From an uncultured Candidatus Saccharibacteria bacterium (GTDB lineage: Bacteria > Patescibacteriota > Saccharimonadia > Saccharimonadales > EFPC-124), in contig CAYURH010000002.1 in assembly GCA_964447105.1 (NCBI GenBank), positions 845 to 64,844 on the forward strand: a stretch of 64,000 nucleotides of DNA. The letters run 5' to 3'. The position numbers and the translations under genes are program-made. The notes under the pieces are model-generated. The model ran no database searches and was not told where the DNA came from. It saw nothing but the letters and a program-made list of their open reading frames with translations. The stretch's first letter is position 1, and every line of letters begins with the position of its first letter. This document shows, piece after piece, positions 12,664 to 64,000 of this stretch.

Positions 12664-13008
12664 TTGGACAGTGGTATGTCGCAAGTTTTGCTGAGAACCG
12701 GAGAATTGGTCGACGAAGATACCGCTCTCAGTGTGATGGGGACGCTGGAGGGACTGGCCGCCAGACACCCCAAGGCTCTACGGGCGGCGCTGAGCGCCTG
12801 CTTGGACCCGGCGTCCCAGATGGACCGTGAGCAGGGAGCGATTCTACACAGTCGCCGCCTGCTGACACACTGGGATTACGCCGACGGCAGCTACCTGTTC
12901 TCCGACGACACGCGTCAGGTCATCCTGGCGGCACTGGAATCCGACGACGAAGGGGGAGTGACGCTCAACCTCGACCCCTACGCCCCAGATGACCAGCAGC
13001 CGGAGTGA
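12664..13008 (+). CDS. hypothetical acidic protein, about 110 aa (high-GC island A)
   Basis: only long ORF in a GC-rich segment, followed by a strong stem-loop; start ambiguous (TTG 12664 or ATG 12676). Confidence 0.55.
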   Translation: MDSGMSQVLLRTGELVDEDTALSVMGTLEGLAARHPKALRAALSACLDPASQMDREQGAILHSRRLLTHWDYADGSYLFSDDTRQVILAALESDDEGGVTLNLDPYAPDDQQPE

Positions 13009-15333: not shown

Positions 15334-15401
15334 CCCATATCCACCCCTGTAACACTCTGTTTGTTATACTGTCTACACGCCTACATGAGAGAGGAGTGGC
15401 G

Positions 15402-15992
15402 ATGACGCCGCTCGAAATCACCTGCCGCGCTCGGGGTCCCGGTGGCACAGACCTGGACAAAGTAACCCTGGCCACGGTGCGGCTTACCTATGCCGGCCAT
15501 GCTCAGGTGTACTGCCATTTTGAGTGCGCCACGCGAGAAATCGCGGAGAGGCTAGCGAAAATTTGGGCTAATTCGCCACCTCTCTACTTGATTCCGCTCG
15601 ATACTCCGACGGCTGCACCGTTGGTACGCGCAACTCAACTGAGCATACTGCCGGGATTCGAGTTGATACTCCAAAATATCGACTCAATCCTGGACAAGCT
15701 CGGCGTCCGCGACCCCTGGGTCTGGCAGTTCGCAACCGCAAGCGGGAGCAAGTTCCCCGTGACGATCAGCGGCAAGCGCGACCAACTGGTAGTGCCCTGG
15801 GCGGACGAGCCGGACCTCGAAGTCCTCAAGGCCGAGCTGCGTCGGCTCGGTATCACCCCTCAGCACGGCGTGACGTTCGAAAAAGAGGAAGGCAAACCGC
15901 CGGCCGTCTACGTCGTGTTGACCCATCACTGCCAACAGACATGGTGGTACTACATAGAGGTGGTGGGGGGCATCGTCGCCAGGTTCAAGTAG
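15402..15992 (+). CDS. hypothetical protein, 196 aa (high-GC island B)
   Basis: SD gagaggag 5 nt before ATG 15402; extended -10 tgttatact at 15362-15370; stem-loop immediately after the stop. Confidence 0.65.
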   Translation: MTPLEITCRARGPGGTDLDKVTLATVRLTYAGHAQVYCHFECATREIAERLAKIWANSPPLYLIPLDTPTAAPLVRATQLSILPGFELILQNIDSILDKLGVRDPWVWQFATASGSKFPVTISGKRDQLVVPWADEPDLEVLKAELRRLGITPQHGVTFEKEEGKPPAVYVVLTHHCQQTWWYYIEVVGGIVARFK

Positions 15993-38365: not shown

Positions 38366-38468
38366 ATACATTACTATCTACCGGCACCTGGCCGGGGGTG
38401 TGCGAGGCACCGCCTCATTTAACATAGGACCGACAACTGGGGCGGCTGCCCCGGAAGGAGAGTGCTCA

Positions 38469-39542
38469 ATGACTTTCGTTGGCGCTCCGAACAACCAGTC
38501 CGATCGTAACTTCGTCATGCATGAGCTCGTGCCCCTCCTTCTGGAGGCCGCGGCGCCGTACATGGCTAACGCCGACACCGCCTTGCTCACGCGAGTGCGA
38601 TCGAGCGAGTTTGTGTTCGTAGGAGCCGACGCCCGCTTCAAGAGCTTCCAGCCCTGGGCTGAGTGGCTCACGGAGCGAGCGCGGGCCTACCAGCCCGAGC
38701 TCAACGTTCACGGCTACGATGTGGCCTGGGCGCCGCTTGCCAGCGCCACCGAGCAGTTCGGCCACTGGCTGCAAACGCTCATGTTCGACCTGGGGTTGGG
38801 CTATGAGCCCGACCGCTACTCCGAGGCACTGCACACGCTGCGGCGCGCCGCAGCCGACGAAGGAACGTCGCTGCTGGTCGTGGCATTTCTGAGCGCCCTG
38901 AGGGGTACCGACGAAATGCCCGGCATCATGGCAGCGATGCACGCCTACGCCGACAGCCTGGGCGTCCCCGACTGGCGCGTGGCAGTACCACCGACGACCG
39001 ATCACTTCCACCAGCGGCGCTTCATGGCGACGTTGACGGGCAGTGGCGGTGCCGGCACGGTGGTGTTCGTATACGCGACCGGTACCAGCGCATCACGCTT
39101 GGTCTGGCGGGTTTATGCCGACGAGAGTGGGCGTGAATACCTGGGGCAGTTGGCATCGAAAGCCTGCGAAGGCTGGCGTGCCGAAAGCAACCCCGAAAGG
39201 ACGCTCGGCGCCCTCCACGCGGTGCCCGACGACCTGATCGGCACCACGACCGCAGGTCAGCAGCAGCCCCGAGTCACCAACGTGCGCGACATCACGACGC
39301 CGTGCGACGCGGCATCCTACCGGACGCTGCTGAGCTGCGTGCGTTCATTCGTGGGTTCGAAGTACGCCGACGGACACCTGGAGACCGGCGAGGCCTGGAA
39401 CCAGGCTGTCGTCATGCCCCAGCGCATGACCGGCATCCACGTCACCCGAACCGACCTGCACCGCGCCCTGCGCGAAGTCGGGTGGGTTCAGGACTCGACG
39501 AGCGGCATGTGGTACTACAGCGAACCCAAGTACACGCCATAG
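38469..39542 (+). CDS. hypothetical protein, 357 aa (high-GC island D)
   Basis: SD ggaaggagag before ATG 38469 (preferred over the track GTG at 38400); no motif recognised. Confidence 0.65.
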   Translation: MTFVGAPNNQSDRNFVMHELVPLLLEAAAPYMANADTALLTRVRSSEFVFVGADARFKSFQPWAEWLTERARAYQPELNVHGYDVAWAPLASATEQFGHWLQTLMFDLGLGYEPDRYSEALHTLRRAAADEGTSLLVVAFLSALRGTDEMPGIMAAMHAYADSLGVPDWRVAVPPTTDHFHQRRFMATLTGSGGAGTVVFVYATGTSASRLVWRVYADESGREYLGQLASKACEGWRAESNPERTLGALHAVPDDLIGTTTAGQQQPRVTNVRDITTPCDAASYRTLLSCVRSFVGSKYADGHLETGEAWNQAVVMPQRMTGIHVTRTDLHRALREVGWVQDSTSGMWYYSEPKYTP

Positions 39543-45005: not shown

Positions 45006-46091
45006 ATGAAGACAGCTCGCTGGATCCTCACTTTAATCGTTATCGTAGCCATTGTTGCACCCGCAATGGTATTTCGGTTTTTACCAACGCCCGACAACCT
45101 GCCGACTGACGCTCAAGAATATCGGATCGCCACTACCGCAGTAGTTTTGTTTGCCTGGCTACATATTGGTTCAGTTTTGCTTTTCCTTGCGGGCCTACAA
45201 GGATTCAAAGAGGAATTCAGAAGGGCATATAAAGCCATCTGTCTGGGGCTAGCACTGTACGGCATCAGCCTATTGCAGTTTCCGATTATCGCAGCATTAA
45301 ATTTATGGCAAAGTGCATGGTCGACCAACGGGGGCAAAGCGATACCGCTTATTGCCGCAAATATCATGCTCTTTATTGGCTTGCGTCTATTCGCAAAACA
45401 GCTAAATATACAGAGCTGGACACAGTCTTTTTGGCTTCTTGCAATTGCGCCCGTGGCAGCTGCACTATTTAGCCTACTAGCAGAAGACGCACGGCGGCTA
45501 GAATTTGTAGCCGACGTCCTTTGCCTTGGTCTTGCGGTTATCTGTGCACCTTTGGTGTGGCAGATATTGCGCGCAACGGGTAAAGCTTACAAAAACTCAC
45601 TCCGTTGGTTGGCTATTGTGCTAACGGTCAATATTGTTGCCCAGTTTCTGCCGCCGCTCATTATTGCGCTTAGAGCCACGGAGGGTGCCTACATAACATT
45701 GCCTTTTGCGATAGCCGGGATAGTAAGTGTCGTTGCCGGGTATAGCTTCACCAAGATCGGCATATCTTTGACCATGGAGGAGTCATCGGAAGCAGGCAAT
45801 GCAAAAGCACTTAACCTGCTCATATATCTGGCTTCTCTGGCTTCAAGTCCAAAAGCTATTGACCCCATCATGGACAATGTCCGTTTTATTACGGCTCGAT
45901 CCTCGGTGGATGCGCCGCTTTCGGAAAACGATCAGAAGCAGCTGGTTGTTGTCTATAATCGTCTAATAGCCTACTTGATCAATCAAGACCCGTTACGAGT
46001 GTACGACAAGCCCTTGCTTGACAGAAAAATCCGCAAAAAATTTCAGCACACCGATCCCGCTGAAGCAGTTTTTTGGAACAGTATCGCCTAG
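45006..46091 (+). CDS. polytopic membrane protein MP1 (8 TM, then a C-terminal soluble helical module)
   Basis: paralog of 47431 and 56127, with the soluble module at the opposite end. Confidence 0.75.
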   Translation: MKTARWILTLIVIVAIVAPAMVFRFLPTPDNLPTDAQEYRIATTAVVLFAWLHIGSVLLFLAGLQGFKEEFRRAYKAICLGLALYGISLLQFPIIAALNLWQSAWSTNGGKAIPLIAANIMLFIGLRLFAKQLNIQSWTQSFWLLAIAPVAAALFSLLAEDARRLEFVADVLCLGLAVICAPLVWQILRATGKAYKNSLRWLAIVLTVNIVAQFLPPLIIALRATEGAYITLPFAIAGIVSVVAGYSFTKIGISLTMEESSEAGNAKALNLLIYLASLASSPKAIDPIMDNVRFITARSSVDAPLSENDQKQLVVVYNRLIAYLINQDPLRVYDKPLLDRKIRKKFQHTDPAEAVFWNSIA

Positions 46092-46220: not shown

Positions 46221-47426
46221 ATGGTACATAAAAATAAATTGCAAAGCGAATCCAGGCAGGGAAAGATAGCTACATTTTGGCGTGCATCCAAAGTAAATAA
46301 GCTGGCAGCATTTGGCATAGTATTTATTGTCGCCGTGATAGGTGTGGCTGTGGCATTCGTAAGCGCATCGGGCTTTTTTGCGGCCAACGAGCCGGAGCAG
46401 GGCACTCGCACGGCGAACGCCCAGTTGGTTACTGACGCCAGCGCATCTGGCGGTCAAGCCATTCAATTTACCGCACCAACCGCGCCTCCGCCTCCGCCAC
46501 CAACAGGTAGCTGTGCAGTAAGCACATCGCACGTGCCCGATGGCCCAGACGGTATGGGTGGGTGCTGGCCAGGGCCAAGCAACACCGGGCCCAATGCAGC
46601 CGAATCGACCATGGCTACCTATACCGGCTCGTGCAATATCACGACCACGAATGCTGTCATTGACTCCAAAGTTATTAACTGTTCGCCGCTGGTCGTCAGT
46701 GCCCCTGGTCTGGTGGTCAAAAACTCATATCTCAAAGGTGGCGTAGGTCGCGGCGACGACACCATACCATTCACCATCCAAGACTCACTGCTCGACAACA
46801 ACACGTCTACCGGATACGCCTGCGGCGACCCCAACAACACCACAACTGATTGTGGCGTTACCGGTAGCAACTTTACCATTTTGCGTACAGAGATCATGCA
46901 CACCAATCGTGCAGCATATTGCCAAGACAACTGCACCATCAAAGATAGTTACTTCCACGGTACAAACCTGCAGCCGATTGCTTCCAACCTGGCGCACGCA
47001 TCATCGGTACGCAACGAGCAAAATCTCACGCTCAATCACAACACTATAGCCTGCGACTATACCGGACCATTTCCCAATGGTGAAATTGGTTGTTCGGCCG
47101 ACATGTCAGGATACCCTGACTTTACGCCGATTAGAAACGACACGATTATCAAAAACTTGTTCATGTCTAACAATGCGGGTATTGCATTTTGTGCGTACGG
47201 TGGCGGCACAGCTGGCAAGCCTTTTAGTAGTGATCCCACCAACGCCACTAACATAGTATTCGAAAACAACATCTTTCAGCGCGGCGCAAATGGCAAGTGT
47301 GGCGCAAATGGCCCCATAACTGATTACATAAATGGTCGCAGCGGCAATTCATGGTGCAACAACAAATACGACAATGGCACCCTGATCAATTCCACTTGGA
47401 CCTGCCTGAATAAAACATCGATATAG
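46221..47426 (+). CDS. secreted Cys-rich beta-helix-like protein (paralog 2) with the shared N-module
   Basis: FFAANEPEQGT...ASGGQAIQF, PPPPPPT, then CAVSTSHVPDGPDGMGGCWPGPSNTG aligned with paralogs 1 and 3. Confidence 0.75.
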   Translation: MVHKNKLQSESRQGKIATFWRASKVNKLAAFGIVFIVAVIGVAVAFVSASGFFAANEPEQGTRTANAQLVTDASASGGQAIQFTAPTAPPPPPPTGSCAVSTSHVPDGPDGMGGCWPGPSNTGPNAAESTMATYTGSCNITTTNAVIDSKVINCSPLVVSAPGLVVKNSYLKGGVGRGDDTIPFTIQDSLLDNNTSTGYACGDPNNTTTDCGVTGSNFTILRTEIMHTNRAAYCQDNCTIKDSYFHGTNLQPIASNLAHASSVRNEQNLTLNHNTIACDYTGPFPNGEIGCSADMSGYPDFTPIRNDTIIKNLFMSNNAGIAFCAYGGGTAGKPFSSDPTNATNIVFENNIFQRGANGKCGANGPITDYINGRSGNSWCNNKYDNGTLINSTWTCLNKTSI

Positions 47427-47430
47427 GCCT

Positions 47431-48522
47431 ATGCAGCCCCAAGCAGCCACCAAACAGCTCCCCGTAAGTCAGCAGGACAACCAGCTCATTGCACGGATTG
47501 TTCAGTTAGCCAAACTAGGTTCCGACCCCAATGCCATCGACCCTTTGCTCGACGTACTGCGCACCACGACGGCCACGCGCGAAGAGGGAGCGCCCCTGCA
47601 GAGCCAAGATCGCACCCGCTTGCAAGGTATTGAGAAAAAACTCCGCGCCTATTTAGTCACACAGGACCCGCTGCGACGTTTTACGCCCGAGAGCTTGGAG
47701 GCTTATCTGCAAGTCGACAGTCAACCGGTAACGGTGGGTATCAACCGTGATTTAATCACCACCCTGGTTGCGGCAGTATGCATGCCACTACTGGCGTTGG
47801 CGTTGCCGTTGTTTTCGGCTTTCCCTTTACAAAAAAGTCTTTTGTTAACCATCCCATTATTTTTGGTAGTATTACATATTGACATTGCGTGGCTCTACAT
47901 TTCGGCGCTAACCCATTTTAAACCAGAGTTTAAACGTGCTTTCTTTTTTGTATGCGTAGGTATTTTACTATTCAGCGTGGCGTTTTCGCACTATGTCCTT
48001 ATTGAATTATTAGAACTGGGTCAGGCCGAGTTATTCCGCTATGGCGGGCTGACTCTGCTCGATGCCAGCTGTTATTTCTTTATGTATATTGGGCTCCGGC
48101 AATACGCACAGTTGCTTGGTATTAAAAGTTTTGCTGTGTCGTGGCCAAAGGTAACGTTAATTGCGCTTGGGCTCAGTCTGGTGGCAATTGTAATTCCACA
48201 CACTGGCCAGCGGCCGTTCGAACCATATTTTGACGTAAGCTTGATTGGCATATGGTTGTTTAGTATGTTCTTGGCGCTCAATGCAGTGGTATCAAGCCAA
48301 ATCGTCAAAAGCGTTACGCCAGCCTACGCCAGATCGCTTCGCTGGCTGCGGATTTATTTTATTGCGGCCTGGATAGGGTCGCTGGGTTCGGCGTTTGGCC
48401 TGCCAATTGTTGGGCAGCTGAACGGTGGATTTTTATATGTTCTGATTGCCATTTTAGGCATCATACCGCAGTTATTGCTGCTGTACACGGGTTATTTGTT
48501 TAAAAAAGAAACTAGTACGTAA
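47431..48522 (+). CDS. polytopic membrane protein MP2 (N-terminal soluble helical module, then 8 TM)
   Basis: starts 4 nt after the beta-helix 2 stop; module ...IDPLLDVLRTTTA...YLVTQDPLRRF. Confidence 0.75.
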   Translation: MQPQAATKQLPVSQQDNQLIARIVQLAKLGSDPNAIDPLLDVLRTTTATREEGAPLQSQDRTRLQGIEKKLRAYLVTQDPLRRFTPESLEAYLQVDSQPVTVGINRDLITTLVAAVCMPLLALALPLFSAFPLQKSLLLTIPLFLVVLHIDIAWLYISALTHFKPEFKRAFFFVCVGILLFSVAFSHYVLIELLELGQAELFRYGGLTLLDASCYFFMYIGLRQYAQLLGIKSFAVSWPKVTLIALGLSLVAIVIPHTGQRPFEPYFDVSLIGIWLFSMFLALNAVVSSQIVKSVTPAYARSLRWLRIYFIAAWIGSLGSAFGLPIVGQLNGGFLYVLIAILGIIPQLLLLYTGYLFKKETST

Positions 48523-48535
48523 TAATGTTACTTCT

Positions 48536-48569
48536 GGTGACGGACGGCGCACCCGCGCCGCCCGTCACC
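48536..48569. terminator. bidirectional GC-rich stem-loop between convergent genes
   Basis: 15-bp stem ggtgacggacggcgc/gcgccgcccgtcacc with one mismatch. Confidence 0.6.
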
Positions 48570-48576
48570 TCGCCGG

Positions 48577-49206
48577 TTAGTTGTAGTAGAGCATCCTGCG
48601 AGCGCAGTCGACGACCCCTTGGAGCAAGTGGAAGTCGTCCGGCTGGCGAACGGCGTACGGGCCGCCGATGTTTGCAGTGAGCCATTGTTCAATGTCGTTC
48701 ACGTGCGTCCAGCGTACATCCAGCACCTTGCCCGGTTCCAGCTTGAACCGGCTCAGTTCGATTTCGGGCAGGTACAGACCGAAGTTGACGCTCAGTGTAC
48801 GGTCCGGCCAGCCATCTTCGGTGGTCTGATCAGTGCGGGTGATCCCGAACATGTGGCACCGCGAGCTGAACAGCATGTCTGGCGGTAGGGCGAAGCCCAG
48901 CTCTTCGTCGAACTCACGGACGAGCGCGCGCCAAGCTTGCTGGACGATGTCCCAGTTGGCCGGGTTTGTGCGTTCTTCGTCGGTGAGAGCCGAGATGTGC
49001 CCGGCCACACCCAACACGTCCCACACGTTGCGCATCAGTTTGACATCGGGACCGCGAAACTGCGTGAGCACCTCGGCACGGTCATTGAAGATCGCACCGT
49101 GAGTACAGATGTGCCACAAACCTCGCGCGTGCACTTCCGACTTGGGCAACGTCTGGCCCGTCGGTACACCTTTCTCGGTACAGACGTCGATCATTTCCTC
49201 GGCCAC
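48577..49206 (-). CDS. Nudix-superfamily hydrolase (high-GC island E), GTG start
   Basis: REFDEELG core of the Nudix box with atypical upstream spacing; SD aggagg 6 nt before the GTG. Confidence 0.7.
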   Translation of the reverse strand: MAEEMIDVCTEKGVPTGQTLPKSEVHARGLWHICTHGAIFNDRAEVLTQFRGPDVKLMRNVWDVLGVAGHISALTDEERTNPANWDIVQQAWRALVREFDEELGFALPPDMLFSSRCHMFGITRTDQTTEDGWPDRTLSVNFGLYLPEIELSRFKLEPGKVLDVRWTHVNDIEQWLTANIGGPYAVRQPDDFHLLQGVVDCARRMLYYN

Positions 49207-49245
49207 CGCATACCTCCTAGGGATGGCGGCTGTGCTCCAACATGA

Positions 49246-49280
49246 TTGTAAAACTAATTTTAGTAAAATCAGTTTTACAA
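49246..49280. promoter_or_regulatory. 35-bp near-perfect palindrome, candidate operator
   Basis: ttgtaaaactaatttta-g-taaaatcagttttacaa: 17-nt arms with one mismatch, centred between the divergent starts 49206 and 49323. Confidence 0.55.
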
Positions 49281-49322
49281 AAATAGATTTTACATGTTTT
49301 GTGGTAAAAAACGAAGTACAAT

Positions 49323-49988
49323 ATGTTCATGCATCGTTTGCAAAAATACATTTTGGACAGATTGCGCCTACAGCAACCGCAAAGTTACAGCGACATGTTA
49401 CCCGCAGATGTCGTAAGCAGCCATTTCCAATACCATCTGAAATCACTGCAAAATCAAGGATTAATTCGCAAAGAATCGCGCGGCCAATACAGCCTCACCA
49501 CCGCCGGCCAAGCCGCAGTAGAATACATGTCAATGGACCGCGACACCCCAGCACGCATGCCCAAGGTAGTAACCTACACACTCCTCACACACGGCGACCA
49601 CCTGTTACTACTGCGCAAGCAAAAAGAGCCATACCGGGGATTGCTGGAACCGGTAGCCGGCAAAATCCACGTCGGCGAGAACGCGTCAACTGCCGCTCAG
49701 CGTGAGGTGTATGAAAAATTTGGACTCCACGTTCCTACGCCACAGTTACGCGGCACGGCCGACATACTTATCACCAAAGACGGTGAGCCACTCACACATA
49801 TGACCGCGTATGCGCACACTATAGAATTATCAGACCTGCCCAACCCCATGCCCCAAAATATGGTGATGGTCGCCGCCGATAAAATTACTAAGCAAAATGA
49901 CTTTGTGCCAGGCGCACTACAGCTGATTCAAGCTCTTTTGCAAAAAACTGACGAACCATTTGTTTTAGATATCAAAGCGAAAGCCTAG
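49323..49988 (+). CDS. winged-helix DNA-binding domain fused to a Nudix domain with a degenerate catalytic box
   Basis: N-terminal wHTH pattern (SSHFQYHLKSLQNQGLIRK...GQYSLT); Nudix box GKIHVGENASTAAQREVYEKFGL in which the second Glu of the EE pair is Lys. Confidence 0.75.
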   Translation: MFMHRLQKYILDRLRLQQPQSYSDMLPADVVSSHFQYHLKSLQNQGLIRKESRGQYSLTTAGQAAVEYMSMDRDTPARMPKVVTYTLLTHGDHLLLLRKQKEPYRGLLEPVAGKIHVGENASTAAQREVYEKFGLHVPTPQLRGTADILITKDGEPLTHMTAYAHTIELSDLPNPMPQNMVMVAADKITKQNDFVPGALQLIQALLQKTDEPFVLDIKAKA

Positions 49989-50151
49989 CGGTTAGAATAT
50001 CCCAACCGCCAGTTGTATCTAGATTACAATTGTAATGATAAGAAACGCGGAGTAATTTCTGCGACTGCACCATATTCCCGATACAACATCTGGTAGCACA
50101 AAATGGGTGGAGCCCCCGGGCGGGGCGAGCCACACCCGGGGACAGAGTAGG

Positions 50152-50607
50152 TCAGACGGTCTGAAGCGACACCACGCAGTAGCGGATGTGGTCTTCGAAA
50201 TCCGACGTGTGGATGAACCGCCGCGGCGGTTGGCCGGGCACCGGCGGCAGCAGGTGGGCTGTGAGCAGGGCCTCAGCGCTGCCCGGACGGATGGTATGCG
50301 GCTGGGCGTCCCGCTCCACGTCGGGAACGAGCTTCTCCATCACGTCGTGCGGGCCGCCATTGATGTTGAGGTCGTTGCTGGTCAGCACGTACCGCTTGCC
50401 GCCGCGAGCGACGACCCGCCGGAATAGCCGGACGACTCGGTCGGCGCGCCGCCTGTCACAGCGCACGCCCGCTTCGTTCGACTCACGCATGATGGCGGCG
50501 ATGACGTCGTCGTACGTCGGCACGGCTGGCGACGCCGATGTCGTCACCGCCGGTGCCGATGTCGTCTCGTCGGCGGCCTTCCGCCGACTCAGGACTGTAG
50601 CTGTCAC
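50152..50607 (-). CDS. hypothetical protein, 151 aa (high-GC island F), GTG start
   Basis: SD taggaggg 8 nt before the GTG; GC-rich stem-loop after the stop; overlapping ORFs in other frames rejected. Confidence 0.55.
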   Translation of the reverse strand: MTATVLSRRKAADETTSAPAVTTSASPAVPTYDDVIAAIMRESNEAGVRCDRRRADRVVRLFRRVVARGGKRYVLTSNDLNINGGPHDVMEKLVPDVERDAQPHTIRPGSAEALLTAHLLPPVPGQPPRRFIHTSDFEDHIRYCVVSLQTV

Positions 50608-50726
50608 TGCACAAGCCCTCCTACTCGTCCGACCTTCTGTCAGTCGGATCTATCTCTACTATACATCGTAAACTTAAGCGACATCAAAAATATGAATCCC
50701 GCCATCAACCTTTGTGCGGCTTGGAG

Positions 50727-51233
50727 CTACTCGTTGTTGCCGAGTTTGTATGTGCGGTAGGTTTGGCTGTCTCCCTGATCGCCAGCGTCTTTGAGTAGCC
50801 AAACATGAGAGACGTGGTGGGTTTGCCCTTCAAATACACCCGCTTCTACCACCGTGGCGCCTGCCCAGGTGACCGTCATATGAGGATAATAATTGTGGTC
50901 CTCGCGTTCGGGATATTTCGATTTGATTGCGTCACCCATATATCGGATAAATGCCTGATGAAAAGCAGCTACGGCATCGCGCGGTGACACCTCAATAACT
51001 TCTACTGGCATGTTTTCTGGTTTGAGACGCTCGCCAAAATGAATTGCAAATGGCGCCTGCAATCGGCAAAAATCATGGATCATCGCCAGACCATCTTTTT
51101 CTATAATCCCTTCAAACGCAAACCGTCGTTTGAGCGCCACCTGCGGGTACCAACCGTTAGCCCCTTGGTACACAAACTCACCCTCTTTGGGTTGACGATC
51201 GAAAAAGGCAACGATTTGATAGGGATAGTGCAT
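50727..51233 (-). CDS. hypothetical protein, 168 aa (possibly 2H-phosphoesterase-like; only one HxT motif seen, PHMTV)
   Basis: clean ORF; weak family hint only. Confidence 0.65.
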   Translation of the reverse strand: MHYPYQIVAFFDRQPKEGEFVYQGANGWYPQVALKRRFAFEGIIEKDGLAMIHDFCRLQAPFAIHFGERLKPENMPVEVIEVSPRDAVAAFHQAFIRYMGDAIKSKYPEREDHNYYPHMTVTWAGATVVEAGVFEGQTHHVSHVWLLKDAGDQGDSQTYRTYKLGNNE

Positions 51234-51253
51234 AACCTCATTATAATAGAACT

Positions 51254-51607
51254 ATGAGTACCAACAATCACATCGATCTCGTAGAATTTCCCGCTTCGTC
51301 GGCTGACGAGGTGCAAAAAGTTACCGCGTTTTTTGTCGCAGTTTTTGACTGGCAATTCAAAAAATGGGGCGACGACTACAGCGACACTCACGATAGTGGA
51401 GTAACTGCCGGTGTAAACGGCAATGAATCCAAAGAACAAACCGCACCACTGGCAGTGATCTACAGCACCGACCTGGAGGGCACCCGCGACAAGATTGTGG
51501 CTGCCGGCGGCAAGATCACCTATCCCATCAACTCGTTTCCAGGTGGACGGCGGTTTGCTTTTACCGACCCAGTCGGCAACGAACTCGCCGTATGGTCGGA
51601 TAAATAG
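51254..51607 (+). CDS. VOC (glyoxalase/bleomycin-resistance fold) family protein
   Basis: 117 aa with a family-typical C-terminus GGRRFAFTDPVGNELAVWS. Confidence 0.8.
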   Translation: MSTNNHIDLVEFPASSADEVQKVTAFFVAVFDWQFKKWGDDYSDTHDSGVTAGVNGNESKEQTAPLAVIYSTDLEGTRDKIVAAGGKITYPINSFPGGRRFAFTDPVGNELAVWSDK

Positions 51608-51630
51608 GGACTGCAGAACAGTAATTACAA

Positions 51631-53304
51631 TTACATCGAGGCTTGACGGCGGATCCTGCGCACGATCAGCCAAATCATCATCACCACAAAGGCCAACACA
51701 AGGAGCAACCACCACCAGTTAAATAGTGGATTCACTGTGGTGCTGTTATCAACTGGCTGAGTTTCGGGTTGCTGCTCGGTGGGGGTAGTGGGGCTGCTGT
51801 CGCTTTCGGCGGGTGGGGGAGTGGTGGTGTCGGGAGCTGGCTCGAGAGGCGGCGCGATGTCTTCGTCGGTGGTTGTGGAGTTGCTAGTTGTGTGATGCGT
51901 CGTGACCGTTTTGCCAGGTGAGGCAGGTGGGGGAGTGGAGCCACCACCACTATCAACAGGTGGCGCTGGCGGTTCTGTGATACTCAGCGTATATGCTTTC
52001 GACGTAGTCAGCAAAAGATCCCGAGCGCTAATGGTGATGTTGAAATCGCCAGATTCGGTGGGCGTACCGCTGAGCAGCCCACTAGATGTATTGAGAGTAA
52101 TGCCAGCCGGCAATGTACCCGAAGCCAATGCGTAGGTGACTGGACCGTGCGGATCGGTCGTCACGATAGCTTTGCTGTATGACGTATCAACTTCACTGCT
52201 GGGGAGCGATGTTGTGCTGATAGTCAAATAATTAAATCCTCGCAGCTGCGGCAAGCTGTTGGCCGCCGTCTGCCAAATTGTCGAGAAATTCCAACTATTC
52301 AGTGGCGCTTGGCTCGAAGTGTTGATGTACGAGGACTTGCTCGCCACACTTCCACCACCGGTCACCGTACCAAATTCTAGACCAATACGCGACGATTCTC
52401 CCGTGTCCCCAGTACTCCAGTATGAATTGGTGACTGAAGCCGTGCCATCAAGCTGGGCCAAGATGCCACCGTGAGGGTTGCTGCCGTGAGTAATACTGCC
52501 CACCGCTACGGCGTTGCTAAGTGTACCGCCACCGTTGAGAAAGCCGCCGATACCGCCTACATACATATCGGTCACTACCGGGCCAACATTCAACAGATTG
52601 CTCATGGTGCTAAAGAAAGAATAGGCGAAAATTCCACTTGCTTCTTGGGCGCCGCCGTTAGCCGTGAGGGCTACCGTGTTTATGACGTCGCTCACTGTTG
52701 AGCCGCTCGCTGTGTTGATAACACCTATAGTGCCGGCGGCCAATTCGTTGGCTGTCACTGTACCGTCGGTAATAACTTTGGAGATTGTGCCACTGTCGCC
52801 CAAATAACCAAGCAGTCCACCAACATTTTGGTTGCCGGTCACCGTGCCGTGGGCCTGTACATTGGTAATGGTAATGCCGTCTAGTTCACCACCAAGCGTG
52901 CCTACAGAGTTATGGCCGGTGATATTAAAATCTTTGAGTCGCACATTCGTGATAGTGCCGCCCTGCGTAAATCCAAAAATACCTATGTTGTCTGATCCTG
53001 GTCGATTGATATACAGGCCACTAATAGTATGACCTTGGCCATCCAAATCTGGTGCATAGCCAAACCCACCGATGGGGGCAAACCCGGCGCCGCTATTCCA
53101 AGTAGTGGTGTCACTGCAGTCAATGTCGGCCGTCAGCCGCCACGTTGTACCACTGGTCATGTTTTGCAGTTCGGTACACGTAGATATGTTTACTACCGCC
53201 GCATTAGCCCGGTGGGTCACCAACAGGGGTACGGCGATCAAGCCCACGGCAATCGCGAGTAACGTCAGGCGTTTTCTCAATCGTCTCCAGGAAGATTTCA
53301 TCAT
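51631..53304 (-). CDS. cell-surface adhesin-like protein (signal peptide, GLUG-type beta-helix region, Ig-like He_PIG domain, Pro/Thr stalk, C-terminal TM anchor)
   Basis: LTADIDCS...FAPIGG...LDGQGHTISGL...IGIFG and GGLLGYL/VGGIGGFL GLUG-like motifs; GTLPAGITLNTSSGLLSGTPTESG; C-terminus WWWLLLVLAFVVMMIWLIVRRIRR. Confidence 0.8.
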   Translation of the reverse strand: MMKSSWRRLRKRLTLLAIAVGLIAVPLLVTHRANAAVVNISTCTELQNMTSGTTWRLTADIDCSDTTTWNSGAGFAPIGGFGYAPDLDGQGHTISGLYINRPGSDNIGIFGFTQGGTITNVRLKDFNITGHNSVGTLGGELDGITITNVQAHGTVTGNQNVGGLLGYLGDSGTISKVITDGTVTANELAAGTIGVINTASGSTVSDVINTVALTANGGAQEASGIFAYSFFSTMSNLLNVGPVVTDMYVGGIGGFLNGGGTLSNAVAVGSITHGSNPHGGILAQLDGTASVTNSYWSTGDTGESSRIGLEFGTVTGGGSVASKSSYINTSSQAPLNSWNFSTIWQTAANSLPQLRGFNYLTISTTSLPSSEVDTSYSKAIVTTDPHGPVTYALASGTLPAGITLNTSSGLLSGTPTESGDFNITISARDLLLTTSKAYTLSITEPPAPPVDSGGGSTPPPASPGKTVTTHHTTSNSTTTDEDIAPPLEPAPDTTTPPPAESDSSPTTPTEQQPETQPVDNSTTVNPLFNWWWLLLVLAFVVMMIWLIVRRIRRQASM

Positions 53305-53368: not shown

Positions 53369-54583
53369 CTACAAACACTCGTCAGCAGCGGTGCAGGTGA
53401 TAATTGCACCGTCGTCATATCGGTTGTTGTTCCCCCAGACATTGCCAGTATTGGTAAACTTGAAAGCGTTGATCGGCCCGTATGCGGCACATTTGCGGTT
53501 CGTTCCGCGCTGGAACACGTTGTCTTGATACACGATACGCGTGGCGCCATTTTCTGGCGCCTGGCCGCCGTAGCTACAAAACGAAGCCCCGGTGTTGGCA
53601 CCCAACAGGTTTCTATATATGTACGCACCTGGGATTGGCCCGTAGTGTGCAATCATGTTGATATCGCCAGTGCAACCACCACCGTCTTTGTTGACTACAG
53701 CGTCACAAATAATTGAACTGTGCTCTATATCGAAGCAAACGCCGCTCATACCACCACTACCAGTGCCCGTGCAAGGCACTTGTTCGCCAAAGTGAGCGAT
53801 GCCGCCCAAGTGAGTTTCGCCGGTCGAAGACTGCCATTGGTCGTGAACCCACGAGTCCTTCATGGAACAATGCGATGAGTGTTCCTGGCATTCCATGGCG
53901 TTGTGGCCGCCGTGAATATTTGCCCGCAAGACGTTCATATTGCCGTTATAGAGGGCTGGAAGATCGCCAGCAGTGGCCGCGACTTCAGAGTCAGTCAGAT
54001 TAAGCGACCAATTGAGGCCAATCAGTATATTGTTAACCTTAGTGTCCGTGTCGACGATAATGCGACCATTGATCTTGCTTCGGGTAATCGTCACGTTTGC
54101 AGCCTGAATCTCAAGCTCGCAGTTGATTGTCTTGGCATCAATAGTGGTATTAGGTGTAGTTATTGTGCAACTCCCCGTGTACGCCGTCAGTACCGTTCCA
54201 GCTGGCACGCCAGTATTGTGGGCGCCGGGCCAACAACCACCAAAACCGTCGGGGCCGTCAGGAACATGCTGCGTACTCACCGCGCACGTACCCGTGCCAC
54301 CGCCACCACCAGATGGTGGGGGAGGGGTTGGCGCATTAAACTGGATGGCCTGTCCGCCAGAAGCAGTGCCGTCAGTTATAACATGAGCGTTGGTAGCAAC
54401 AGTGCCGGACTCGGGCTCATTACTGGCAAAGAACCCTGAAGCTTTCGTAAGGATTATCACCAGCCCAGCTGTGAGCACAATCATTGTCACGCTCACGGCT
54501 ATGAGTTTATTGGTTCGTGAGCTACGCCACATCGAAGTTAACTTTGACGACGAGTTCATAGAAGTGCCTCTTTTGCGTTTCAT
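53369..54583 (-). CDS. secreted Cys-rich beta-helix-like protein (paralog 3) with the shared N-module
   Basis: FFASNEPESGT...ASGGQAIQF, PPPPSGGGGG, then CAVSTQHVPDGPDGFGGCWPGAHNTG. Confidence 0.75.
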   Translation of the reverse strand: MKRKRGTSMNSSSKLTSMWRSSRTNKLIAVSVTMIVLTAGLVIILTKASGFFASNEPESGTVATNAHVITDGTASGGQAIQFNAPTPPPPSGGGGGTGTCAVSTQHVPDGPDGFGGCWPGAHNTGVPAGTVLTAYTGSCTITTPNTTIDAKTINCELEIQAANVTITRSKINGRIIVDTDTKVNNILIGLNWSLNLTDSEVAATAGDLPALYNGNMNVLRANIHGGHNAMECQEHSSHCSMKDSWVHDQWQSSTGETHLGGIAHFGEQVPCTGTGSGGMSGVCFDIEHSSIICDAVVNKDGGGCTGDINMIAHYGPIPGAYIYRNLLGANTGASFCSYGGQAPENGATRIVYQDNVFQRGTNRKCAAYGPINAFKFTNTGNVWGNNNRYDDGAIITCTAADECL

Positions 54584-63527: not shown

Positions 63528-63923
63528 TCACAACTTACTAGTATCGGAACCGCCCTCAACCTCCACCGTAAACCCACCATACGCCATGCGCGTCATATCG
63601 GTAGGCATGGGGTCGGTGGGCGGCATCATGTCGCTCATTTCGGCCATGACTGCAGCGTTCACCTGGTCGCGGTGTTCTTTGGATTTAAAAATAATGAACG
63701 AAAACCACACATCTTCGCCGTCTTTTGCCCCGGCCATGTCGTTAAACGGGCGTGTCGATTCGTCGCCCATTTGCTGTGGCTTCAGGTCGTTGGCCCGACA
63801 TTCGTAGTAGGCAAGGGCGCCATGCTTCATCCACGCGTCGCGACCCATGGTAGCCATTTTTTTGTATTCGTCGGCTTTGTCTGCTGGGACTACCAGTATG
63901 AAACCGTCTACGTATTTATCCAT
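63528..63923 (-). CDS. DUF1428 domain protein
   Basis: MDKYVDGFILVVPADKADEYKKMA...WMKHGALAYYEC is typical of DUF1428/YbaA-like proteins. Confidence 0.8.
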   Translation of the reverse strand: MDKYVDGFILVVPADKADEYKKMATMGRDAWMKHGALAYYECRANDLKPQQMGDESTRPFNDMAGAKDGEDVWFSFIIFKSKEHRDQVNAAVMAEMSDMMPPTDPMPTDMTRMAYGGFTVEVEGGSDTSKL

Positions 63924-64000
63924 GGTTTGTCTCCTCTAATGTATGTGTAAATATTATTTTAGCATTAGAGCATAGGGGCGCGCGACAATGGGGGTGGGGG

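What the first reader, a model, noticed from the sequence alone, without database searches (positions are those of the whole stretch)
48577..49988. Divergent Nudix pair around a 35-bp palindrome, one gene being an inverted NrtR-like wHTH-Nudix fusion
A 35-bp element sits midway between the divergent starts, 40 nt from one and 43 nt from the other. It reads ttgtaaaactaatttta g taaaatcagttttacaa (49246-49280) and has 17-nt arms with a single mismatch. Additional tttac/gtaaa half-sites follow up to 49310. The plus-strand gene encodes an N-terminal winged helix plus a Nudix domain whose box is degenerate: REVYEKFG, with Lys replacing the second catalytic Glu. Known Nudix-related regulators (NrtR) also use a crippled Nudix domain as a ligand sensor, but with the opposite domain order, Nudix then wHTH (established knowledge). 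The minus-strand partner is a high-GC, apparently foreign Nudix hydrolase with an intact REFDEELG core. This suggests a nucleotide-metabolite-responsive switch controlling an acquired hydrolase.
Basis: partly seen in the sequence, partly recalled or inferred. Interest (0 to 1): 0.55.

Follow-up and report, generated by a model that had tools for sequence, protein, structure and literature searches.

The report
Saccharibacterial wHTH–Nudix regulator and its operator
A small protein of an uncultured Saccharibacterium joins a DNA-binding winged helix to a probably inactive nucleotide-hydrolase-like domain and sits next to its own conserved DNA target, which points to an undescribed family of metabolite-sensing gene switches in these reduced-genome bacteria.

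Summary
A 17+1+17 nt palindrome lies at 49246-49280 and is the only one of its kind in the window. The plus-strand gene (49329-49988) is wHTH + Nudix with REVYEK.

The element is better read as an array of 16-bp operators, GTAAA-N6-TTTAC. One site is perfect (49263-49278), with degenerate sites 15 nt to either side. The conserved symmetry centre is 49270/71, not 49263.

A perfect GTAAA-N6-TTTAC lies within 130 nt upstream of the regulator gene in 16 of 20 related Saccharibacteria loci (protein identity 25-79%). It occurs nowhere else in 209 kb, apart from the same intergenic region of two partner-anchored loci.

The family is large: 715 cluster representatives at E<=1e-10. The Glu-to-Lys change is kept in 83% of 164 full-length members, and the recognition helix is almost invariant.

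The upstream gene is always divergent, but its identity changes with the clade: IDI/YfcD-like Nudix, 2OG/PhyH oxygenases, a uridine-kinase-like operon, a desaturase.

The high-GC partner is co-inherited with the regulator, and no donor lineage was found.

Best reading: an autoregulated one-component regulator, probably a repressor, that works like NrtR but is not a member of the NrtR family. The effector is unknown.

The parts
49329..49988 (+). Regulator gene (219 aa; an in-frame ATG at 49323 would give 221 aa). wHTH + Nudix-like domain.
   Evidence: ORF. Homologues begin MHxLQ. Pfam NUDIX 3.8e-8 plus wHTH-clan hits. AF2 pLDDT 91.8.
49335..49523 (+). Winged helix-turn-helix (residues 5-67 in 221-aa numbering). 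The predicted recognition helix is residues 32-44 (SSHFQYHLKSLQN).
   Evidence: AF2 secondary structure is H-H-H-E-E-H. 81 of 100 members hit DUF7347 and 34 hit HTH_45. Y35/H36/L37 are 94-98% conserved, Y54 100% and G60 98% over 164 sequences (219-aa numbering).
49563..49985 (+). Nudix-fold domain (residues 81-220), MutT/MTH1-like.
   Evidence: Foldseek against PDB: top hits MTH1, YmfB and MutT, probability 1.0, about 140 aligned columns, Nudix part only. Profile against PDB: 3fk9 MutT at 1e-17.
49659..49727 (+). Nudix box GKIHVGENASTAAQREVYEKFGL. The K132 codon AAA at 49716-49718 replaces the second Glu of the EE pair.
   Evidence: Read. E131 and K132 are invariant in 24 close homologues. Over 164 family members the position is K in 83% and E in 4%. 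EK occurs in 86 of 104 regex-matched representatives and EE in 4.
49246..49280 (.). It consists of operator site 1 plus operator site 2.
49248..49263 (.). Operator site 1, GTAAAACTAATTTTAG (right half degenerate, one mismatch).
   Evidence: The left outer GTAAA is also present in L002, L004 and L016 but absent in L001 and L003.
49263..49278 (.). Operator site 2, GTAAAATCAGTTTTAC: a perfect GTAAA-N6-TTTAC, the conserved core. It starts 66 nt before the ATG at 49329.
   Evidence: A perfect site lies at -65 to -67 in seven related loci (L001-L004, L016-L018), as in the window (-66), and at -51 to -93 in eight others. In total 16 of 20 loci carry one, and there is none elsewhere in 209 kb apart from the same intergenic region of L021 and L022.
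49278..49293 (.). Operator site 3, CAAAAATAGATTTTAC (left half degenerate). Its TTTAC at 49289-49293 mirrors the GTAAA at 49248-49252 about the centre 49270/71.
   Evidence: Inverted repeat I1 (22-nt arms, 82% complementary). The layout TTTAC-N10-TTTAC is conserved in L001-L004, L016, L018 and L019.
49304..49308 (.). A further GTAAA half-site 15 nt beyond site 3.
   Evidence: The same position is occupied in L016 and L002.
49317..49322 (+). A -10-like hexamer TACAAT, 6 nt before the ATG at 49329. There is no Shine-Dalgarno sequence, so the regulator mRNA may be leaderless or have a very short leader (inference).
   Evidence: TAnAAT or TATAAT lies at the equivalent place in L001-L004, L016, L018, L019 and L020. 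The sigma-70 consensus scan did not call it.
49213..49218 (-). Shine-Dalgarno AGGAGG of the partner gene, 6 nt before the GTG at 49206.
   Evidence: Read directly (plus strand cctcct).
48577..49206 (-). Divergent partner gene (209 aa): an IDI/YfcD-like Nudix-fold protein with REFDEELG, GC 0.60 and GC3 0.77.
   Evidence: ORF. Pfam NUDIX 21.0 bits (cut-off 21.1). AF2 pLDDT 85.9. Foldseek hits YfcD 2fkb (1.5e-10), IDI and DR0079. Composition.
48536..48569 (.). GC-rich inverted repeat GGTGACGGaCGGCGC-accc-GCGCCG-CCGTCACC between the convergent stops. It is a likely terminator and the outer edge of the high-GC segment.
   Evidence: Read. The GC step is shown. The terminator scan did not call it because there is no T-run.
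49985..50012 (.). Stem-loop straddling the regulator's stop codon, which makes the regulator monocistronic.
   Evidence: Terminator-like site, 12 pairs.

Best explanation
The plus-strand gene encodes a one-component transcription factor of an undescribed family that appears confined to Saccharibacteria.

Its N-terminal winged helix, presumably as a dimer, recognises the 16-bp palindrome GTAAA-N6-TTTAC. The half-site centres are 11 bp apart, one helical turn. In this window three such sites, 15 nt apart, fill 49248-49293, and a further half-site lies at 49304. This leaves little room between the two divergent start codons (122 nt apart, 49206 and 49329) for promoters that do not overlap the sites.

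Occupancy of the sites therefore most likely represses both the regulator's own gene and the divergent IDI/YfcD-like Nudix gene.

The C-terminal MutT/MTH1-like Nudix domain keeps the fold and most of the box (G, K, E, R, E, E). It carries Lys in place of the second Glu of the EE pair, which in MutT, as recalled from the literature, helps bind the metal. The domain is inferred to bind, and not turn over, a phosphorylated (nucleotide-type) ligand. Ligand binding would change DNA affinity and de-repress the pair.

Shown here: the fold, the domain order, family-wide conservation of the Lys and of the recognition helix, co-conservation of operator and protein, and the invariably divergent arrangement.

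Inferred: DNA binding itself, the sign of regulation, loss of catalysis, and the nature of the ligand.
For: 1. A perfect GTAAA-N6-TTTAC lies within 130 nt upstream of the regulator in 16 of 20 loci, spanning 25-79% protein identity. There is no other perfect site in 209 kb of window plus loci, apart from the same intergenic region in two partner-anchored loci.
2. The distance to the start codon is nearly fixed, at -65 to -67 in the window and seven related loci.
3. The predicted recognition helix is the most conserved part of the protein: Y35 and H36 98%, L37 94%, wing Y54 100%.
4. The wHTH is supported by the AF2 topology and by Pfam hits in 81 of 100 members.
5. The Nudix fold is confirmed. 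The box position is K in 83% and E in 4% of 164 members.
6. The upstream gene is on the opposite strand in all 20 loci, although it belongs to at least seven different protein types.
7. The array fills most of the space between the partner's Shine-Dalgarno sequence (49213-49218) and the regulator's ATG.
8. Precedent: NrtR proteins with perturbed Nudix signatures bind ADP-ribose, lack hydrolase activity and repress from palindromic sites overlapping promoters (PMC2330246).
Against: There is no experimental data at all.
- No canonical sigma-70 promoter was found in the spacer, so promoter overlap, and hence repression rather than activation, is an inference.
- Only one residue of the Nudix signature is changed, so residual or altered catalysis cannot be excluded.
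- Four of 20 loci (L005-L008) have only half-sites or a differently arranged motif.
- The target genes share no obvious pathway, so the ligand cannot be deduced.
- Two loci keep the partner but have lost the regulator (L021, L023). The partner can therefore exist without local control.
- No dimer model and no protein-DNA model was made.
Confidence: 0.65

Rival explanations
1. Bifunctional enzyme-regulator. The protein is a working Nudix hydrolase that also binds its own promoter, in the way NadR combines an N-terminal HTH with enzymatic domains. Regulation follows substrate occupancy or turnover, not a dead sensor domain.
For: Every Nudix-box position except one is canonical: G111, K112, E117, R125, E126 and E129 are each 86-98% conserved. 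About 4% of members have EE. The NrtR family also contains an active member with an intact signature, NuhA (PMC2330246). The closest relatives by sequence and fold are active enzymes.
Against: The Lys is kept in 83% of a family that has diverged to about 25% identity, which indicates selection for the non-canonical residue. As recalled from the MutT literature, and not tested here, this Glu helps bind the essential metal. In NrtR, perturbed signatures go with loss of activity, and restoring the signature of Slr1690 raised the rate 600-fold.
Confidence: 0.15
2. One reading: an inverted NrtR that senses ADP-ribose, an NAD metabolite or Ap(n)A and was recruited to control a recently acquired foreign Nudix hydrolase.
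For: Same two domain types as NrtR and a perturbed box. The partner has a GC3 of 0.77 against a window mean of 0.58, sd 0.07. Profile hits include NadM-Nudix and ADP-ribose pyrophosphatases, but below MutT/MTH1.
Against: The Nudix domain is nearest MutT/MTH1. NrtR-family chains (5bs6, 2fml, 3gz8) score 8-10 orders of magnitude worse than the top hit and match the Nudix part only. No NrtR-type winged helix was detected. No NAD gene lies beside any of 20 loci. The operator is GT-N12-AC, not the NrtR core GT-N7-AC. The partner is co-inherited with the regulator in at least nine other loci, has diverged in step with it, and no donor was found among 5.8 billion proteins. Other clades of the family pair the regulator with quite different genes.
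Confidence: 0.08
3. The AT-rich repeat is not this protein's operator. It would be a promoter or UP-like element, a site for another factor, or an RNA hairpin in the 5' leader of the partner mRNA. The wHTH would serve another role, such as nucleic-acid targeting of a decapping-type Nudix enzyme.
For: Transcribed from the minus strand, 49240-49300 folds to -14.5 kcal/mol, z = -4.6. TTTACA resembles a -35 hexamer. Twelve of 100 members give weak Nudt16-like hits and seven give RNase R wHTH hits.
Against: The 35-nt hairpin is not conserved: its left arm is missing in L001 and L003. What is conserved is base identity of GTAAA and TTTAC with a free 6-nt spacer, over protein divergence down to 25% identity and with seven or more different neighbouring genes. 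The motif therefore tracks the regulator gene, not the neighbour. TTTACA lies 22 nt from the -10-like hexamer, which is too far for a -35. The half-sites lack the T6 of a -10. On the plus strand the fold is unremarkable (z = -1.9).
Confidence: 0.07

Closest known systems
[quoted passage not shown] 2008, PMC2330246; structures 3gz5/3gz8, 2fml)
   Same: A Nudix-fold domain with a perturbed catalytic signature is fused to a winged helix. There is a palindromic operator in the regulator's own promoter region, local control of adjacent genes, and a predicted effector-released repressor.
   Different: The domain order is reversed (wHTH first). The winged helix is of another type (DUF7347/HTH_45-like, with no NrtR WHD hit). 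The Nudix domain is nearest MutT/MTH1, not ADP-ribose pyrophosphatase. The operator is GTAAA-N6-TTTAC (GT-N12-AC) rather than a 21-bp site with a GT-N7-AC core. There is no link to NAD genes. Members whose taxon could be seen are confined to Saccharibacteria. This looks like an independent fusion, not a circular permutation of NrtR.
BtAraR, an NrtR-family regulator of arabinose utilisation (PMC4666351; PDB 5bs6/5deq)
   Same: A Nudix-like sensor domain in a transcription factor whose targets are unrelated to NAD, which shows that such sensors change ligand. It is the best-scoring NrtR-family chain against the family profile (2.7e-9, Nudix part only).
   Different: Nudix-then-wHTH order, Bacteroides, a sugar effector, and no similarity in the DNA-binding domain.
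Enterobacterial NadR (as described in PMC2330246)
   Same: An N-terminal HTH is fused to enzyme-derived domains. It binds an 18-bp palindrome with a 6-nt spacer (TGTTTA-N6-TAAACA), similar in form to the site here.
   Different: NadR's other domains are NMN adenylyltransferase and ribosylnicotinamide kinase, not Nudix, and they are catalytically active. There is no homology.
MutT / MTH1 (NUDT1) / YmfB-type Nudix hydrolases (PDB 3fk9, 6glo, 3dku)
   Same: Closest sequence and fold relatives of the C-terminal domain. Same box except one residue.
   Different: They are stand-alone enzymes with REUXEE. Here the box is REUXEK and an N-terminal wHTH is added.
E. coli YfcD, type-1 IPP isomerase and Deinococcus DR0079 (relatives of the partner protein)
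   Same: Best fold matches of the minus-strand protein (2fkb 1.5e-10, 1nfs, 2o5f). The N-terminal strand-hairpin motif and the residues H26/H32/H70 align with the IDI metal ligands H25/H32/H69 (identity of the IDI ligands from memory).
   Different: The IDI catalytic Cys67 position is Ala68 in all 12 family members. Unlike IDI, the protein keeps RE..EE. It has a 14-residue insert inside the Nudix box. Substrate unknown.

Membership tests
NrtR (Nudix-related transcriptional regulators) | N-terminal Nudix-like domain followed by a C-terminal wHTH | tested here: not met
   The wHTH is at residues 5-67 and the Nudix domain at 81-220. The same order holds in 100 of 100 aligned family members.
NrtR (Nudix-related transcriptional regulators) | NrtR-type winged-helix DNA-binding domain (homologous to the C-terminal part of COG4111) | tested here: not met
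   A per-member Pfam scan lists DUF7347, HTH_45, Mrr_N, HTH_12 and HTH_20 but no NrtR WHD. PDB matches to NrtR chains cover only the Nudix part.
NrtR (Nudix-related transcriptional regulators) | Nudix domain most similar to ADP-ribose pyrophosphatases | tested here: not met
   The top profile and fold hits are MutT (3fk9, 1e-17) and MTH1. ADP-ribose pyrophosphatases and NrtR chains come lower.
NrtR (Nudix-related transcriptional regulators) | Perturbed Nudix signature GX5EX7REUXEEXGU | tested here: met
   REVYEK. K is found at this position in 83% of 164 members.
NrtR (Nudix-related transcriptional regulators) | 21-bp palindromic operator with a GT-N7-AC core, upstream of NAD metabolism genes | tested here: not met
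   The operator is GTAAA-N6-TTTAC. The neighbours are Nudix, 2OG/PhyH oxygenases, a PRK-like kinase and a desaturase, with no NAD genes.
NrtR (Nudix-related transcriptional regulators) | ADP-ribose releases the protein from DNA | not testable with these tools
   Needs EMSA or ligand-binding assays.
Nudix superfamily (C-terminal domain of the regulator) | Nudix alpha/beta/alpha fold | tested here: met
   Pfam NUDIX 33.9 bits against a cut-off of 21.1. Foldseek probability 1.0 to many Nudix structures.
Nudix superfamily (C-terminal domain of the regulator) | Complete catalytic box, with both Glu residues of REUXEE | tested here: not met
   E131-K132.
Winged helix-turn-helix DNA-binding domains | Three helices followed by a beta-hairpin wing; sequence similarity to wHTH families | tested here: met
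   AF2 gives H5-16, H22-25, H32-44, E48-50, E55-58. 81 of 100 members hit DUF7347 (best 5.6e-8) and 34 of 100 hit HTH_45. The query's own scores are below the Pfam cut-offs. A fold search of the isolated domain could not be run.
Winged helix-turn-helix DNA-binding domains | Sequence-specific DNA binding | not testable with these tools
   Supported only indirectly, by co-conservation of the motif with the gene.
Nudix superfamily, IDI/YfcD-like branch (partner protein) | Nudix fold with the N-terminal extension typical of IDI/YfcD | tested here: met
   Foldseek hits 2fkb at 1.5e-10 (TM-target 0.75-0.84) and IDI 1nfs at 4e-9. The profile hits YfcD at 3e-3.
Nudix superfamily, IDI/YfcD-like branch (partner protein) | Canonical 23-residue Nudix box | tested here: not met
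   RE..EE is intact, but G69 to R97 spans 28 positions against the canonical 14. Pfam gives 21.0 bits, below the 21.1 cut-off.
Type-1 isopentenyl-diphosphate isomerase (partner protein) | Catalytic Cys (E. coli C67) in the NSxCxHP motif | tested here: not met
   The aligned position is the invariant Ala68 in the motif VAGH. The residue numbering of IDI is from memory.

The most novel reading that the evidence does not exclude
The family is a lineage-wide sensor of the quality of the nucleotide pool. The MutT/MTH1-derived pocket would be made non-hydrolytic by the Glu-to-Lys change, with the Lys perhaps taking the place of the metal at the phosphates. It would bind an oxidised or otherwise non-canonical nucleoside di- or triphosphate. 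It would then de-repress a clade-specific response gene.

Many of the partners are O2- or metal-dependent enzymes (2OG/PhyH oxygenases in 7 loci, a di-iron desaturase in 1). Others are nucleotide-handling enzymes (IDI/YfcD-like Nudix in 9 of the 20 loci, counting the window, and a CYTH-like plus uridine-kinase-like operon in 2).

If true, this would be a transcription factor that reads nucleotide damage directly, in organisms that, from general knowledge, cannot make nucleotides de novo and take them from a host. I know of no described example.
Probability: 0.12. Interest if true: 0.75.

Novelty: new variant of a known kind. Interest (0 to 1): 0.5.

Why it matters
Saccharibacteria and other CPR bacteria have very small genomes, and from general knowledge hardly any of their transcription factors has been characterised.

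Here a whole family comes with a precise, testable operator (TTTWGTAAA-N6-TTTACWAAA), a predicted sensor domain and a defined local target. The family has 715 cluster representatives at E<=1e-10, and nearly all of the top 150 are full-length.

It is annotated in the source databases only as 'NUDIX domain-containing protein' or 'ADP-ribose pyrophosphatase YjhB'.

It also shows that fusing a crippled Nudix domain to a winged helix probably arose a second time, independently of NrtR and in the opposite order. That strengthens the view of Nudix domains as reusable ligand sensors.

Finding the ligand would show which metabolite these host-dependent bacteria monitor.

Tried and rejected
- Promoters: the sigma-70 consensus scan found nothing in the 49207-49328 spacer. 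My hand attempts to pair TTTACA or TTGTAA with a -10 at 16-18 nt failed on both strands. The spacing to the -10-like TACAAT is 22 nt. Promoter positions are therefore left as inference.
- RNA families: an Rfam scan of 47000-52000 gave only sub-threshold microRNA noise.
- Defence and phage libraries: PADLOC and PHROGs gave only generic Nudix matches for the regulator and nothing for the partner or the high-GC ORF.
- Donor for the 'foreign' partner: a single-sequence search and a profile search returned 17 clear family members plus one marginal hit (E 8e-4); those whose source or context could be seen are of this lineage. A recent transfer is therefore rejected. An ancient one remains possible.
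- Regulon in the window: there are only two 1-mismatch sites (63450, inside a coding sequence; 63947, upstream of a DUF1428 gene). That equals my rough hand estimate of about two expected by chance, so neither is claimed.
- Taxonomy of distant representatives: two cluster look-ups gave only one organism name.
- Literature: no paper describing an N-terminal-wHTH/C-terminal-Nudix regulator family was found. One paper on S. sobrinus NrtR describes that protein in this order (PMC12735969), which I could not verify.
- IDI function for the partner: rejected, because the catalytic Cys position is Ala.
Full report
**1. What is in the sequence.**

Two genes diverge from a 22% GC spacer.
- On the minus strand, 48577-49206 encodes 209 aa. 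It starts at a GTG that is preceded by AGGAGG six bases upstream.
- On the plus strand, an ORF opens at 49323. The 24 homologues begin MHxLQ and the database copy is 219 aa, so the likely start is 49329.

It is the only repeat of that quality in the window. None appeared in 20 Markov-1 simulations of the window, and none in 200 kb of random sequence with the spacer's composition.

**2. Finer anatomy of the element.**

The spacer holds short half-sites:
- GTAAA at 49248, 49263 and 49304;
- TTTAC at 49274 and 49289;
- a degenerate TTTAG at 49259.

These make three 16-bp units spaced 15 nt apart, each sharing its end base with the next:
- GTAAAACTAATTTTAG (one mismatch);
- GTAAAATCAGTTTTAC (perfect);
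- CAAAAATAGATTTTAC (left half degenerate).

This is direct repeat D2 and inverted repeats I1-I3, also shown. Each unit is itself palindromic, so two neighbours automatically form a larger palindrome.

**3. Comparative evidence.**

The protein has 24 close homologues, all from Saccharimonadales-type metagenome contigs. A scan of 185,579 species genomes brought 14 loci with relatives at 25-79% identity. Thirteen are labelled Saccharibacteria or Patescibacteria. The fourteenth is a 2.2-kb contig labelled Magnetospirillaceae, probably mis-binned. Eight more loci came from exact-protein look-ups.

A perfect GTAAA-N6-TTTAC lies within 130 nt upstream of the regulator's start in 16 of 20 loci. In the window and seven related loci it begins 65-67 nt before the start codon. 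In all 209 kb held, the only other perfect sites are in the same regulator-partner spacer of two partner-anchored loci.

Near relatives share the layout (GTAAA-N10-)GTAAA-N6-TTTAC-N10-TTTAC, which is symmetric about the centre of the perfect site (49270/71 here).

Distant relatives (25-31% identity; L009-L014) carry a single extended palindrome, TTTTAGTAAA-N6-TTTACTAAAA. The overall consensus is TTTWGTAAA-N6-TTTACWAAA. L005-L008 have only half-sites or a direct arrangement.

A motif that follows one gene family through this much divergence, while the flanks, the spacer and the neighbouring gene all change, is best explained as that family's own binding site.

**4. The regulator protein.**

- *Pfam.* NUDIX is found at 3.8e-8, plus several sub-threshold wHTH families. 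When 100 family members are scanned one by one, 99 hit NUDIX, 81 hit DUF7347 and 34 hit HTH_45.
- *Structure.* The AlphaFold model (pLDDT 91.8) shows three helices and a two-strand wing (residues 5-58), a helix, a less confident linker (about residues 68-80), and a Nudix fold (81-220).
- *PDB by fold.* Foldseek matches only the Nudix half (MTH1, YmfB, MutT; TM normalised to the query about 0.5). No solved chain appears to cover both domains.
- *PDB by profile.* The best hits are MutT 3fk9 (1e-17) and MTH1. NrtR-family chains (5bs6, 2fml, 3gz8) are 8-10 orders of magnitude weaker and align to the Nudix part only.

**5. Size of the family and the Nudix box.**

An exhaustive HMM search of 1.84 billion cluster representatives gave 2738 hits at E<=1e-3 and 715 at E<=1e-10. 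Nearly all of the top 150 are full-length, about 220 aa.

Over 164 full-length sequences the box is G111 (98%), K112 (88%), H114 (91%), E117 (86%), R125 (96%), E126 (88%), E129 (87%), then K130 (83%; Q 4%, E 4%), in 219-aa numbering.

So the Lys that replaces the second Glu of REUXEE is a selected family character. The rest of the box is canonical.

The most conserved stretch outside the box is the predicted recognition helix (E-S-N-x-F-x-Y-H-L) together with the wing Tyr. This fits the invariant half-site.

**6. Neighbours.**

The gene upstream of the regulator is on the opposite strand in all 20 loci, but its identity varies:

| Divergent gene | Loci |
|---|---|
| IDI/YfcD-like Nudix protein | window, L001-L004, L016, L017, L019 and L022 |
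| PhyH or 2OG-Fe(II) oxygenase-like proteins | L005, L007, L008, L011-L014 |
| EIERKFL-motif (CYTH-like, no Pfam hit) gene followed by a PRK/uridine-kinase-like gene | L009, L010 |
| Acyl-ACP-desaturase-like gene | L020 |
| Unknown proteins | L006, L018 |

No NAD gene appears. The conserved module is the regulator with its operator in a divergent promoter region. The controlled gene is clade-specific.

**7. The partner protein.**

REFDEELG is invariant (R97, E98, E101, E102), but 28 positions separate G69 from R97 instead of 14. The Pfam NUDIX score is 21.0, just under the 21.1 cut-off. The AlphaFold model (pLDDT 85.9) matches YfcD, type-1 IPP isomerase and DR0079. H26, H32 and H70 align with H25, H32 and H69 of E. 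coli IDI, but the Cys67 position is Ala, so it is not an isomerase of that type.

Its GC3 is 0.77, against 0.58 ± 0.07 for 60 ORFs of the window. The excess is just as marked in every orthologue (0.62-0.85, against 0.44-0.62 for the adjacent regulator).

Two searches of 5.8 billion proteins found 17 clear family members plus one marginal hit at E 8e-4. Many lie on the same contigs as regulator homologues, and no outside donor was found. Partner identities (42-56%) fall in step with regulator identities (55-79%).

The composition is truly odd, but the gene is an old, co-inherited companion and not a recent import. Why its GC3 has not ameliorated is unexplained.

**8. Mechanism proposed.**

*Shown:* the fold, the domain order, conservation of the Lys and of the recognition helix, co-conservation of the motif, and the divergent arrangement.

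*Inferred:*
- A dimer binds GTAAA-N6-TTTAC, whose half-site centres are 11 bp apart.
- The array (49248-49308) fills most of the 98 nt between the partner's Shine-Dalgarno sequence (49213-49218) and the -10-like TACAAT (49317-49322), which sits 6 nt before the regulator's ATG. Binding should therefore occlude both promoters and repress.
- The Nudix-like pocket binds a phosphorylated ligand without hydrolysing it, and ligand binding lowers DNA affinity.

This is the logic established for NrtR (PMC2330246). The sign of regulation and the ligand are open. The consensus promoter scan called nothing in the spacer.

**9. Rivals.**

- An active enzyme that also represses cannot be excluded, because only one box residue differs.
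- An RNA hairpin in the partner's leader is possible in this window (minus strand, -14.5 kcal/mol, z = -4.6). It is not conserved, and it does not explain invariant bases with a free spacer.
- The NAD/ADP-ribose version has no specific support.

**10. Comparison with what is known.**

The protein works like NrtR but fails the membership tests:
- domain order;
- type of winged helix;
- nearest Nudix subfamily;
- operator;
- target genes.

No paper in the searchable library describes this architecture as a regulator family. One paper on S. sobrinus NrtR describes that protein as wHTH-then-Nudix (PMC12735969), which I could not check.

Database names are generic.

**Verdict.** This is a new variant of a known kind, a Nudix-sensor one-component regulator. 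It probably arose by an independent fusion, and so far it is seen only in Saccharibacteria. Interest is moderate, at 0.5. The principle is not new, but the family is large, unannotated and immediately testable. It also lies in a lineage where, from general knowledge, regulation is almost unknown.

Noticed in passing
window 50152-50607 (-): A 151-aa ORF immediately downstream of the regulator has GC 0.68, with GC1 0.70, GC2 0.51 and GC3 0.84, and an AGGAGG before its GTG. This is coding-like for a high-GC organism. It has no Pfam, NCBIfam, PADLOC or PHROG hit and no homologue in the related loci. The native-looking regulator is therefore flanked on both sides by high-GC genes.
   Followed up: partly
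window 38400-39542 (+), 15396-15992 (+), 12664-13008 (+): Three more ORFs have GC3 of 0.73-0.80, against a window mean of 0.58. None has a Pfam hit. The contig seems to be dotted with high-GC orphan genes. This may reflect gene flow from high-GC hosts or their phages; that origin is speculation.
   Followed up: partly
L021 1891-2067 and L023 798-1104: Two contigs carry the partner Nudix gene without the regulator. L021 keeps the operator array and the first bases of the regulator ORF (cgaagtacaaaatgatcatgcatcat in reverse), next to the same VanY/MFS/histidine-kinase neighbours as L016. This looks like a natural deletion of the regulator gene.
   Followed up: partly
window 48577-49206 (-), residues H26, H32, H70, A68: Three invariant histidines of the partner protein align with the metal ligands of E. 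coli IPP isomerase, while the catalytic Cys position is Ala and the Nudix RE..EE is retained. This combination of IDI-like and hydrolase-like features is unusual.
   Followed up: partly
all partner orthologues (window, L001-L004, L016, L017, L019): The GC3 of the partner gene stays 0.15-0.30 above that of the adjacent regulator in every lineage, even though the proteins have diverged to 37-59% identity to the window's partner. Persistent non-amelioration is unexplained.
   Followed up: partly
L019 3716-3961 (-): A WhiB-like gene (81 aa, GC 0.63, Pfam Whib) lies directly downstream of the regulator on a 132-kb contig that carries the Saccharimonadales-type regulator-partner pair. As far as I know, WhiB proteins are otherwise typical of Actinobacteria and their phages.
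   Followed up: no
window 63947-63962: GTAAATATTATTTTAG has the same one-mismatch form as operator site 1. It lies about 24 nt upstream of the minus-strand DUF1428 gene (63528-63923). It is within chance expectation (about two such sites per window), so it is not claimed as a target.
   Followed up: partly
window 45006-46091 / 47431-48522 and 46221-47426 / 53369-54583 (-): There are two pairs of paralogues just upstream of the finding. One pair is multi-pass membrane proteins (27-41% identity in two segments). The other is secreted or anchored 401/404-aa proteins (37% identity). Neither has a significant Pfam hit.
   Followed up: no
window 49317-49328 and the equivalent positions in L001-L004, L016, L018-L020: A -10-like TAnAAT or TATAAT sits 5-8 nt before the regulator's ATG, and no Shine-Dalgarno sequence is visible. 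The regulator mRNA may be leaderless, in contrast to the partner's strong AGGAGG.
   Followed up: partly
L003 (DATLJN010000036.1, 2216 bp): This contig is labelled Magnetospirillaceae but carries the Saccharimonadales regulator-partner pair with the same operator. It is probably mis-binned.
   Followed up: no
PMC12735969 (S. sobrinus NrtR paper): The text describes SsNrtR as N-terminal wHTH plus C-terminal Nudix, and says the domains are 'inverted' in the S. suis protein. This contradicts the usual description of NrtR. It may be an error, or a real second case of this order.
   Followed up: no
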